A stretch of 64,000 nt of DNA. It comes from Escherichia coli (GTDB lineage Bacteria; Pseudomonadota; Gammaproteobacteria; Enterobacterales; Enterobacteriaceae). The stretch is from assembly GCF_048403405.1 (NCBI RefSeq), contig NZ_CP183129.1; one strand, 5' to 3'. Below, piece after piece: positions 7,001 through 10,000 of this stretch. Every line of letters begins with the position of its first letter. Position 1 is the first letter of the stretch. The position numbers were made by a program.

Positions 7001-10000
7001 TCCAGCGACTCCAGTTCGTTCAGCTGCGTGCCTAATTCCGCGCGAATAGTCAGCACATTGTTCAGCGAGTTTTTCAGTCCGCGGTTGGTTTTATCCAGTG
7101 CCGCAGCGGCGGTTTCTTTATCCGCTTCGCTATCCGCGACCGGCGTTTTCAGGGCTGCGATGGCGCTATCCAGCATGGCAAAAAGATTGGTTTCAGAAGC
7201 GCTACCGTCTGGTTCCGCTACCGCGTTGCTGGTAATACTGTCGAAAATTTTGTCACCCGTGTGCCCTATCACCATCGAACGCGAAGCATCGACCTGTTGT
7301 TTAATACTTTCTGCTCCGCCAACATATTCGCCGTCTGCCTCACTAAACGGCGCAGTTTCTGTTTTATAACCGGCAAAAATGTAGCGCCCGTTACCGTCAG
7401 TGGTGTTCGCCAGATTCAGCAACTGGTCACGAAGCCCCTGAATATCCGTAGCCAGCGAGGCCCGGTCATCGTCACTCAAGGTGCCATTGCTGGCGTAGAC
7501 AATTTTTTCCTGAGCATTCTGGATAGCGGTGGTGACCTGGCTAAGTACACTCTCTTCCAGTGACACTTTTTGAGTGGCGAAAGTACGCGCCAGCGTGTAC
7601 TGGCTGTTTTGCGCCTGTGCCTGGGAGAGAACAACAGCTTGTGATGCAGCAATGGGATCATCTGAAGGGTTAACGACTCGCTTACCCGTCGACATCTGTT
7701 CACCGTACTTCATCCATTCTGCCTGAGAATTGGTGATGCCGCGCATGTTTTGCTGGTACATCATCTGGGTACTGAAACGCATTTTATCTCCCCTTAGCGA
7801 ATGTTAATCAGCGCATCAAAAATCGCGTTTGCCGTCTGCAGAACCTGCGCATTCGCGAGGTAATACTGCTGAAAACGTTGCAGATTTCCGTACTCCTCAT
7901 CGAGATTGACACCGGAAATCGACTGCTGCTGATTGGAAAGCTGCGTCACCACATTACCTTGCGTGGTGCTACTGGTTTTCAACGTCGCGGTTTTATTACC
8001 GATATCACTCACTAACGAGGCATAAGCGTCGTTAAAGGATTTCGCACCGCCCACCGTTTTACTGTTGCTTTGCAGATCGAGCAGGGCCTGACCGTTGCGG
8101 TTGTCGCTATCACCCGCATCTTCTGCGCTCGCCATGGCGATTTTCGCTTCGTCGGTGATTAATACATCCATGTTGACGATGGCGTCACTTACCGGTTTCA
8201 GTGTGAAGCTGTCGTTAACGGCAGGCGTTCCTGTAAACGTCAACTCCAGACCATCAAATGCCACTTTACCGTTGGCATCCGGCGTCACCGTAAAAGTGGT
8301 ATTACTGGCAAGGCGGGTGACCTGCCACTGATTATTATCGAACGAGATTTTGTAATCTGTCGCCAGTACCGCGGAGGCATCAGTTACCGTTGCACCGATC
8401 GCAACGTCACCTTTGTTTTTCGTGTTTTGCAGAACCGCGGGCTTACCGATAGCAAAGAAATCTTCACCGGCATCGCCGTTAGCATCAAATCCGGCTTTGT
8501 GTTGGGTGTTGAAAGCCTCGGCAAATGCCAGCGCCAGTTGTCCAAGCGTATTACGCGTCTGGTCAAGATCCTGAGAACGGAATGTCAGAATGCCGCCCAG
8601 CGACCCGGTATTCAGTAATTTTTCAGGGATCTCAATATTGCCTGCCGTCCCATCAACATAAGCGACAGTCGTACGAGAAGGGTCGGCGCTGGAAGGAACT
8701 GCCGCAAGTTGCCGCGCCGTACTTCCCTGAACCAGTGAGTAGCCATTGGCCATCGTGATGTTATAAGTGCCACCATCCTGAACGCTGACTTCTACGCCAA
8801 CAATCTGGTTTAATTCGCTCACCAGTTGATCGCGTTGATCCAGCAGATTGTTAGGTGACGCCCCTGCCCCCACGCCTGTCAGGCGGGAGATTTGATCGTT
8901 CAGGCTGGCGATTTGTTTAGCGTAATTGTTGATCTGATCAACGCTGGCACCTATCGCGATATTGACCTGTTTGTCCTGGTCGCGCAGATATTGATCGGTG
9001 GTTTTAAACTGATTCACCAACCCTTCTGATTTCCCAATCAGCGCCTGGCGCGCTGCCGGGTCTTCCGCGTTACTCACCAGCGTTTGCAGGCTGGTGAAGA
9101 AATCCTGCATCTGTGTTGCCAGCGAAGAGGTACTGGTGGAGAGCATATTGTCGATTTTCGACATCTGCTCATAGCGGGCAGTCAGGCCGCTACTTTGCGT
9201 CTGCGCCGCACGTAACTGGTTGGTAATAAACGCATCATACTCACGCTGCACACCAGAAACGTAGACGCCATTGCCAACCCAGCCGCCAGCGCCCAACGTG
9301 CTATTGGCCTGCGTCATAATAGTGGTTTGGCGGGTATATCCGGCAACGTTATAGCTGGAGATATTATTACTTGCCGTATTTAACGCCGCCTGGGCCGCGT
9401 TCAGTCCGCTCATGGCGTTATTGATCAAGCTGGACATGGAGGTTCCTTATAAGCCTTCAATTACAGAGTATTATCGGCAGCGACCCGCCGGACTTGAGTT
9501 ATTCAGAACAGATTATCAATGTTCATGCTGTAGGTTTTGCTCACCTTGTCGCTTATCGATTTCATCTGCTGAATCATGTTGGTGAGTTTGCGGGCATAGT
9601 GAGGATCGGTGGCATAGCCCGCGTCCTGTAGGGCCTGCGCCCCCTGCTCCGCACTCGCGGCGGTCGTCACGGCGGCGTAGCGCGGGTTACGCGTTAACAG
9701 CCCAACGTAATCCGACAATGCTTCCAGATACGAGCTGTAGACCCGAAACTTCGCTTTTACTTTCTTCGCTTCGCCATTTTCATATTCAGTCGTGGTGATT
9801 TCAGTGACTGGCCCTTTCCAGTTGCCAGAGGCTTTGACGCCAAACAGGTTATAGCTCGGCTCGCCGTTTTCACGGCGGATTTGCCGTTGTCCCCAGCCAG
9901 ACTCCAGCGCCGCCTGAGCGAGGATCAAATGATGTGGCACACCGCTTTGCTGGCTTGCCAGTTGGGCGGGCAACGAGAGTTGCGCGAGGAATGCTTTACT

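What the first reader, a model, noticed from the sequence alone, without database searches (positions are those of the whole stretch)
9471..9497. Sigma-28 promoter for flgKL in the flgJ-flgK spacer
Minus strand reads TCAAGTCC-N11-GCCGATAA in the 65-bp gap between flgJ and flgK. The -10 element is an exact consensus match and the -35 is weaker, consistent with flgKL having a class 3 promoter in addition to class 2 read-through.
Basis: partly seen in the sequence, partly recalled or inferred. Interest (0 to 1): 0.2.

Follow-up and report, generated by a model that had tools for sequence, protein, structure and literature searches.

The report
Known sigma-28 promoter of flgKL

Summary
The minus strand reads TCAAGTCC (9497-9490), then 11 nt, then GCCGATAA (9478-9471), inside the 65-bp gap between the flgJ stop (9505-9503) and the flgK ATG (9437-9435). 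The window is Escherichia coli, and the whole spacer is identical to K-12 MG1655. The same 28-mer is listed by Fitzgerald et al. 2014 (PMC4183435, Table 2) as a strong in-vivo FliA ChIP-seq site assigned to flgKL. Purified sigma-28 holoenzyme selects the flgJ>flgK spacer in genomic SELEX (Shimada 2017). flgK falls in a fliA deletion and is restored by FliA overexpression without FlhDC, and RT-PCR shows read-through from flgJ. My own tests agree. The site ranks 2nd-3rd of about 128,000 window positions in a leave-one-out FliA matrix. In 19 flgK loci from about ten enterobacterial genera plus the window (20 distinct sequences), TCAAG and GCCGATAA are invariant and always 11 nt apart, while the spacer sequence and the rest of the gap vary freely. 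The gap holds no sigma-70-like promoter, no terminator and no unusual RNA structure. Verdict: a real feature, correctly interpreted and already known. The exact transcript start (predicted near 9463) is inferred, not shown here.

The parts
9490..9497 (-). -35 element of the flgKL class 3 (sigma-28/FliA) promoter: TCAAGTCC, 5/8 match to TAAAGTTT
   Evidence: Sequence. It is part of the 28-mer listed as a FliA ChIP-seq motif for flgKL. The first five bases, TCAAG, are invariant in 20 distinct sequences from about ten genera.
9479..9489 (-). 11-nt promoter spacer GGCGGGTCGCT; its length is fixed and its sequence is free to vary
   Evidence: There are 18 distinct spacer sequences among the 20 sequences, all exactly 11 nt, with mean pairwise identity 0.53.
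9471..9478 (-). -10 element GCCGATAA (extended -10 GC plus core), 8/8 match to consensus
   Evidence: Sequence. All 8 columns are invariant across genera. The consensus and the numbering (-15)GCCGATAA(-8) come.
9462..9464 (-). Predicted transcript start (+1) of the sigma-28 flgKL mRNA, giving a leader of about 26 nt
   Evidence: This is inferred only. If the last A of the -10 box (9471) is -8 (numbering), then +1 falls at about 9463. No base-level start mapping was available in the held literature.
9444..9448 (-). Shine-Dalgarno sequence AAGGA of flgK, 6 nt before the ATG
   Evidence: Sequence. The AAGGAA block has 5 of 6 columns invariant across genera.
7794..9437 (-). flgK (hook-filament junction protein 1, 547 aa), first gene of the transcription unit
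   Evidence: ORF. The annotation of identical or near-identical E. coli records is.
6829..7782 (-). flgL (hook-filament junction protein 2, 317 aa), second gene of the unit
   Evidence: ORF; annotation.
6752..6829 (-). FlgO small RNA and terminator, processed from the flgL 3' UTR; this is the 3' end of the unit
   Evidence: The K-12 ncRNA flgO (b4826) is annotated directly after flgL. It aligns to the window with 2 substitutions. Its sigma-28 dependence and its processing from the parental mRNA are reported by Melamed 2023.
9503..10444 (-). flgJ, last gene of the class 2 flgB operon, from which read-through enters flgK
   Evidence: Annotation (942 nt). There is no terminator-like site between flgJ and flgK. 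RT-PCR across the junction is reported in Fitzgerald 2014.

Best explanation
The site is the class 3 promoter of the flgKL operon (PflgK) of E. coli. RNA polymerase carrying the flagellar sigma factor FliA (sigma-28) recognises TCAAGTCC as the -35 box and GCCGATAA as the extended -10 box, 11 bp apart. It starts transcription about 8 nt downstream of the -10 box (predicted near window 9463). The product is an mRNA with a leader of about 26 nt that encodes FlgK and FlgL and ends in the FlgO 3'-UTR small RNA. Before the hook-basal body is complete, FlgM holds FliA inactive, and flgKL is made only as the tail of the FlhDC-dependent flgBCDEFGHIJ transcript, which reads through the terminator-free 65-bp gap. 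After FlgM is exported, FliA adds transcription that does not depend on FlhDC. FliA binding, fliA-dependent expression and read-through are shown in the literature for the identical K-12 sequence. The exact start base and the share of FlgO that comes from this promoter are inferred.
For: The motif is at the stated coordinates. The window is E. coli and the gap lies between annotated flgJ and flgK. The K-12 spacer is identical. Fitzgerald 2014 Table 2 lists the identical 28-mer TCAAGTCCGGCGGGTCGCTGCCGATAAT as a FliA ChIP-seq motif, FAT score 47, operon flgKL, with RNA-seq 318 in wild type and 138 in the fliA deletion. The same paper reports flgJ-flgK RT-PCR read-through and restoration of flgK by FliA overexpression in a flhD deletion. 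Shimada 2017 found a genomic SELEX peak of 27.2-fold in the flgJ>flgK spacer using RpoF holoenzyme. Zhao 2007 measured flgK at -5.5-fold in a fliA deletion and +2.2-fold on FliA induction. In a leave-one-out FliA matrix the site ranks 2nd-3rd of about 128,000 window positions, at 16.4-18.5 bits against a window mean of about -21. In 19 of 19 informative flgK loci from Escherichia, Citrobacter, Klebsiella sp., Pseudescherichia, Pluralibacter, Phytobacter, Cedecea and Trabulsiella, the best sense-strand hit is TCAAG..-N11-GCCGATAA. TCAAG (5/5 columns) and GCCGATAA (8/8 columns) are invariant, the spacer is always 11 nt with 18 different sequences, and the other intergenic columns show about 0.5 pairwise identity. 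The gap contains no sigma-70-like promoter and no terminator-like site.
Against: Under the conditions of Fitzgerald 2014 the fliA deletion lowered flgK only about 2.3-fold, which was not flagged as significant, whereas the flhDC deletion lowered it more than 100-fold. The promoter was therefore a minor contributor there. Motif quality alone does not prove function. An equally scoring site inside flgD (15498-15525, minus strand) is identical in K-12 yet absent from the ChIP-seq list. I could not retrieve a base-level transcript start for E. coli flgK, because Kutsukake & Ide 1995, Ide 1999, Wozniak 2010 and Thomason 2015 are not held.
Confidence: 0.96

Rival explanations
1. The motif binds FliA holoenzyme, but under natural conditions it is essentially silent. 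On this view practically all flgKL mRNA comes from read-through of the class 2 flgB promoter, and the site is a vestigial or stand-by promoter.
For: In Fitzgerald 2014 the fliA deletion changed flgK only from 318 to 138, without a significance mark, while the flhDC deletion had a >100-fold effect. The authors state that most transcription of the dual-regulated genes comes from the FlhDC-dependent promoter.
Against: Both boxes and the 11-nt spacing are invariant across about ten genera while the neighbouring bases have diverged to about 50% identity, which indicates continuing selection. Zhao 2007 saw a 5.5-fold drop in a fliA deletion. FliA alone restores flgK to wild-type level or above without FlhDC. 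Fitzgerald 2014 cites Wozniak 2010 for the class 3 promoters of flgKL and fliDST being required for swarming and rapid repair of sheared flagella in Salmonella.
Confidence: 0.03
2. The match is a chance resemblance to the sigma-28 consensus with no promoter function.
For: GCCGATAA occurs 8 times in the window, and 2 of 100 shuffles reach that count. An equally good two-block match inside flgD appears not to be bound by FliA.
Against: The expected number of matches with up to 3 mismatches is 0.57 per window, or about 2e-4 for this gap and strand. The site is occupied by FliA in vivo and by holoenzyme in vitro. It shows a perfect two-block phylogenetic footprint.
Confidence: 0.005
3. The conserved blocks are an RNA-level signal in the read-through flgJ-flgK mRNA, such as a processing site, a translational element or a weak attenuator, rather than a DNA promoter.
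For: A short CGGCGG/GCUGCC hairpin can form across the spacer, and the region is transcribed as part of the long class 2 mRNA.
Against: The fold is no better than shuffled sequence, with z = 0.16 and 103 of 200 shuffles folding at least as well. The hairpin-forming spacer is the variable part, whereas the conserved parts are the two boxes at a fixed distance, which is the pattern of a two-block promoter and not of a helix. There is no T-run or terminator-like site and no Rfam family hit.
Confidence: 0.005

Closest known systems
E. coli K-12 flgKL class 3 promoter (FliA site at NC_000913.2 motif centre 1137556; NC_000913.3 1138318-1138345)
   Same: It is the identical 28-mer, and the whole flgJ-flgK spacer is identical. 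The flanking genes, strand relationship and distance to the flgK ATG are the same.
   Different: There is no difference in the promoter. Within the aligned 96 nt, the window strain differs from K-12 only by a synonymous base in flgK codon 6.
Salmonella enterica flgKL dual class 2 / class 3 regulation (Kutsukake & Ide 1995; Wozniak, Chevance & Hughes 2010, as cited in Fitzgerald 2014)
   Same: The architecture is the same: flgKL is transcribed both as the tail of the flgB operon and from its own sigma-28 promoter.
   Different: I could not retrieve a Salmonella sequence or those two papers, so base-level identity of the Salmonella promoter was not tested here.
Other dual-regulated flagellar operons: flgMN (promoter inside flgA, window 17579-17606 +) and fliDST
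   Same: Each has a sigma-28 two-block promoter with N11 spacing nested behind an FlhDC-dependent class 2 promoter. FliA is bound in vivo, but a fliA deletion has only a modest effect.
   Different: flgMN has a near-consensus -35 (TAAAGATT) and scores 25-29 bits, against 16-18 bits for flgKL. The flgKL -35 carries a conserved C at position 2 (TCAAG).

Membership tests
Sigma-28 (FliA/RpoF) class 3 flagellar promoter of Enterobacteriaceae | Two-block motif resembling TAAAGTTT-N11-GCCGATAA with an 11-nt spacer | tested here: met
   The -10 box matches 8/8, the -35 box 5/8, and the spacer is 11 nt. The leave-one-out matrix score is 16.4-18.5 bits, which lies within the range of the training sites (about 9-29 bits for the FAT>4 set; 2.3-27.4 bits for the all-sites set).
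Sigma-28 (FliA/RpoF) class 3 flagellar promoter of Enterobacteriaceae | Correct position and orientation upstream of a late flagellar gene | tested here: met
   The site is on the same strand as flgK, and the -10 box ends 33 nt before the flgK ATG, inside the flgJ-flgK gap.
Sigma-28 (FliA/RpoF) class 3 flagellar promoter of Enterobacteriaceae | Occupancy by FliA / sigma-28 holoenzyme | not testable with these tools
   This is not testable computationally. For the identical K-12 sequence the literature reports a FliA ChIP-seq FAT score of 47 and an RpoF holoenzyme SELEX peak of 27.2.
Sigma-28 (FliA/RpoF) class 3 flagellar promoter of Enterobacteriaceae | fliA-dependent transcription that is independent of FlhDC | not testable with these tools
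   From the literature: flgK is -5.5-fold in a fliA deletion and +2.2-fold on induction, and FliA overexpression in a flhD deletion restores flgK.
Sigma-28 (FliA/RpoF) class 3 flagellar promoter of Enterobacteriaceae | A fliA-dependent primary 5' end about 7-8 nt downstream of the -10 box | not tested
   No base-level start data were accessible. The start near 9463 is inferred from the -15..-8 numbering of the -10 element.
Sigma-28 (FliA/RpoF) class 3 flagellar promoter of Enterobacteriaceae | Evolutionary conservation of the boxes and spacing relative to the surrounding non-coding DNA | tested here: met
   All 13 core columns are invariant, the spacer is always 11 nt with 18 distinct sequences, and the flanking intergenic identity is about 0.5 across about ten genera.
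Dual class 2 / class 3 (overlapping operon) architecture | No terminator between the upstream class 2 operon and the class 3 promoter, allowing read-through | tested here: met
   There are no terminator-like sites in 9200-9800 and no significant RNA structure. RT-PCR across flgJ-flgK is reported in the literature.

The most novel reading that the evidence does not exclude
The non-consensus -35 variant TCAAG, with C instead of A at position 2, is invariant across about ten enterobacterial genera while the adjacent bases have diverged freely. It might therefore be selected to hold PflgK at a deliberately sub-maximal strength, setting the ratio of class 2 to class 3 flgKL (and FlgO sRNA) expression, rather than being a mere tolerated deviation. 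This would be a small refinement to a well-known promoter and not a new kind of element.
Probability: 0.25. Interest if true: 0.15.

Novelty: already known. Interest (0 to 1): 0.05.

Why it matters
The promoter lets the cell make the hook-filament junction proteins FlgK and FlgL, and the FlgO small RNA from the flgL 3' UTR, independently of the master regulator FlhDC once the hook-basal body is finished. In Salmonella this class 3 input has been linked to swarming and to repair of sheared flagella, as cited in Fitzgerald 2014. For this scan, the value is as a positive control. A reader working from sequence alone located a real, experimentally validated sigma-28 promoter to the base. The nearby flgD look-alike shows how far motif matching alone can mislead.

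Tried and rejected
- **Sigma-70 promoter or intrinsic terminator in the gap.** The scan found none.
- **RNA element in the gap.** The fold is no better than shuffles, z = 0.16. There is no Rfam family at gathering threshold in 6400-9800.
- **Chance match.** This was rejected on frequency, matrix rank and conservation.
- **Base-level transcript-start evidence.** Wozniak 2010 (PMC2937404) and Thomason 2015 (PMC4288677) are not held. Minamino 2021 and Paradis 2017 only restate the dual class 2 / class 3 regulation. Fitzgerald 2017 and the 2020 Salmonella preprint do not discuss the flgK promoter.
- **Salmonella sequence.** The single genome-contig scan returned 20 loci without Salmonella, so that comparison was not made. 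L017 was truncated 51 nt upstream of the ATG and was excluded.
- **flgD intragenic look-alike.** It was considered as a second promoter and judged probably inert. It is absent from the ChIP-seq list although identical in K-12. It has C at -35 position 1, a change that cut aer promoter activity about 10-fold.

Full report
**Observation.**
Reading the minus strand gives ...TTCTGAATAAC-TCAAGTCC-GGCGGGTCGCT-GCCGATAA-TACTCTGTAATTGAAGGCTTATAAGGAACCTCC-ATG. TCAAGTCC occupies 9497-9490, the 11-nt spacer 9489-9479 and GCCGATAA 9478-9471. The flgJ stop codon TGA is at 9505-9503 and the flgK ATG at 9437-9435, so the gap is 65 bp. Every coordinate and count in the finding is correct. Against the consensus TAAAGTTT-N11-GCCGATAA (quoted in Hollands et al. 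2010), the -10 box matches 8/8 and the -35 box 5/8.

**Is it more than chance?**
- GCCGATAA alone occurs 8 times in the window against 2.6 expected, so the octamer alone is weak evidence.
- The two-block consensus with up to 3 mismatches occurs 3 times against 0.57 expected, and 0 of 100 shuffles reached 3. The three matches are this site, the flgMN promoter at 17579-17605 (+) and a site inside flgD.
- I built a position weight matrix from the FliA ChIP-seq motifs of Fitzgerald et al. 2014, leaving out the flgKL entry. The site scores 16.4-18.5 bits and ranks 2nd-3rd of about 128,000 positions on both strands. The window mean is about -21 bits with sd 8.

**Identity of the locus.**
The 401 bp around the site match 5,425 of 5,426 complete E. 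coli genomes, many at 100% identity, and the matched region is annotated flgJ and flgK. The gene order is flgN-flgM-flgA, then the divergent flgBCDEFGHIJKL, then a convergent rne. K-12 MG1655 carries the identical 28-mer at NC_000913.3 1138318-1138345, and the whole spacer is identical to the window.

**What is already known.**
- Fitzgerald et al. 2014 (PMC4183435), Table 2, lists TCAAGTCCGGCGGGTCGCTGCCGATAAT as the FliA ChIP-seq motif for flgKL. The peak centre is 1137565, the motif centre 1137556 (NC_000913.2) and the fold-above-threshold score 47. RNA-seq values are 318 in motile MG1655 and 138 in the fliA deletion.
- The same paper shows by RT-PCR across the flgJ-flgK boundary that flgKL is also transcribed as part of the FlhDC-dependent flgB operon.
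- Shimada et al. 2017 (PMC5493296) found a 27.2-fold genomic SELEX peak in the flgJ>flgK spacer with purified RpoF holoenzyme, and cite in-vitro transcription under direct RpoF control.
- Zhao et al. 2007 (PMC1935009) measured flgK at -5.5-fold in a fliA deletion and +2.2-fold five minutes after FliA induction.
- Hollands et al. 2010 count flgKL among the eight well-characterised sigma-28 promoters of K-12.
- Minamino et al. [quoted passage not shown]

**Independent comparative test.**
A degenerate DNA pattern for the FlgK N-terminus retrieved 20 flgK loci from the species-representative genome collection. They come from E. albertii, E. whittamii, Escherichia sp., five Citrobacter, Klebsiella sp. 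BIGb0407, Pseudescherichia vulneris, Pluralibacter, Phytobacter, Cedecea and Trabulsiella. One locus (L017) was truncated and gave no information.
- In all 19 informative loci, the best sense-strand matrix hit within 170 nt upstream of flgK is TCAAG(T/A)NN-N11-GCCGATAA, scoring 14.8-23.2 bits. The best antisense hits are far lower, scoring at most 8.6 bits.
- In the alignment of 20 distinct sequences (19 loci plus the window), TCAAG (5/5 columns), GCCGATAA (8/8 columns) and the ribosome-binding AAGGAA (5/6 columns) are the only conserved blocks of the spacer.
- The 11-nt spacer has 18 different sequences but never changes length. The other intergenic columns have about 0.5 mean pairwise identity.
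- A 9-bp insertion or deletion that separates two groups of genera lies downstream of the -10 box, in the leader.
- Within E. coli, the 101-bp junction is at least 99% identical in 5,379 of 5,424 genomes. The most divergent record changes only spacer and flank bases.

This is the footprint expected of a two-block promoter. It is not the footprint of an RNA helix.

**Rival signals.**
The region 9200-9800 contains no sigma-70-like promoter and no terminator-like site. The 101-nt junction folds no better than shuffled sequence, z = 0.16. No Rfam family reaches gathering score in 6400-9800. The absence of a terminator fits read-through from flgJ.

**Mechanism.**
What is shown, in the literature for the identical sequence: FliA holoenzyme binds here in vivo and in vitro, flgK responds to FliA without FlhDC, and read-through from flgJ occurs.

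What is inferred:
- With the -10 element numbered (-15)GCCGATAA(-8), as in the sigma-28 open-complex structure paper (PMC12784957), the start falls at about window 9463 (9462-9464). That gives a leader of about 26 nt with the Shine-Dalgarno AAGGA at 9448-9444.
- The transcription unit runs through flgK (9437-7794) and flgL (7782-6829) and ends in the FlgO small RNA and terminator (about 6829-6752). Melamed et al. 2023 (PMC10578931) show that FlgO is processed from the flgL 3' UTR and is sigma-28-dependent. It follows by inference that FlgO depends at least partly on this promoter.

**Caveats.**
- In the conditions of Fitzgerald 2014 the class 3 promoter supplied the minority of flgK mRNA. The change in the fliA deletion was about 2.3-fold and not flagged significant, against more than 100-fold for the flhDC deletion.
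- Motif quality alone is not sufficient evidence. CAAAGTTA-N11-ACCGATAA inside flgD (15498-15525, minus strand) scores as well as PflgK and is identical in K-12. It is nevertheless absent from the 52 FliA ChIP-seq sites. Its first base is C, and a T-to-C change at that position lowered aer promoter activity about 10-fold.
- I could not obtain a base-level transcript start, because the relevant papers are not held.

**Verdict.**
The only mildly new detail from this work is that the non-consensus -35 variant TCAAG, with C at position 2, is invariant across about ten genera. That could reflect selection for a tuned, sub-maximal promoter and would be a minor refinement at most. Interest is low.

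Noticed in passing
window 15498-15525 (-), inside flgD: The sense-strand motif CAAAGTTA-N11-ACCGATAA scores 16-18 bits, as high as the real flgK promoter. It is identical in K-12 (NC_000913.3 1132252) but absent from the published FliA ChIP-seq list, so it is probably an inert look-alike. It has C at -35 position 1.
   Followed up: partly
window 17579-17606 (+), inside the 3' part of flgA: TAAAGATTACCCGTCCCTTGCCGATAAA is the top FliA matrix hit in the window (25-29 bits). It is identical to the published flgMN class 3 promoter motif (Fitzgerald 2014, Table 2).
   Followed up: partly
window about 6752-6829 (-), flgL 3' UTR: The FlgO small RNA (K-12 b4826) is present with two T-to-C substitutions relative to K-12. 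One of them turns a G-U pair of the terminator stem into G-C. No Rfam family matched at gathering threshold.
   Followed up: partly
L001 11967-12751 (E. coli 118UI) versus window 6635-6828: Strain 118UI, which is 100% identical at the flgJ-flgK junction, carries a GNAT-toxin / DUF1778-antitoxin gene pair inserted between flgL and rne. The window and K-12 have only a gap of about 195 bp there.
   Followed up: no
window 13087-13222, flgF-flgG spacer: This spacer is 136 nt in the window and in strain 118UI but 171 nt in K-12. Shimada 2017 lists a weak RpoF SELEX peak (6.7-fold) in the K-12 flgF>flgG spacer, but my matrix scan found no strong FliA motif there in the window.
   Followed up: no
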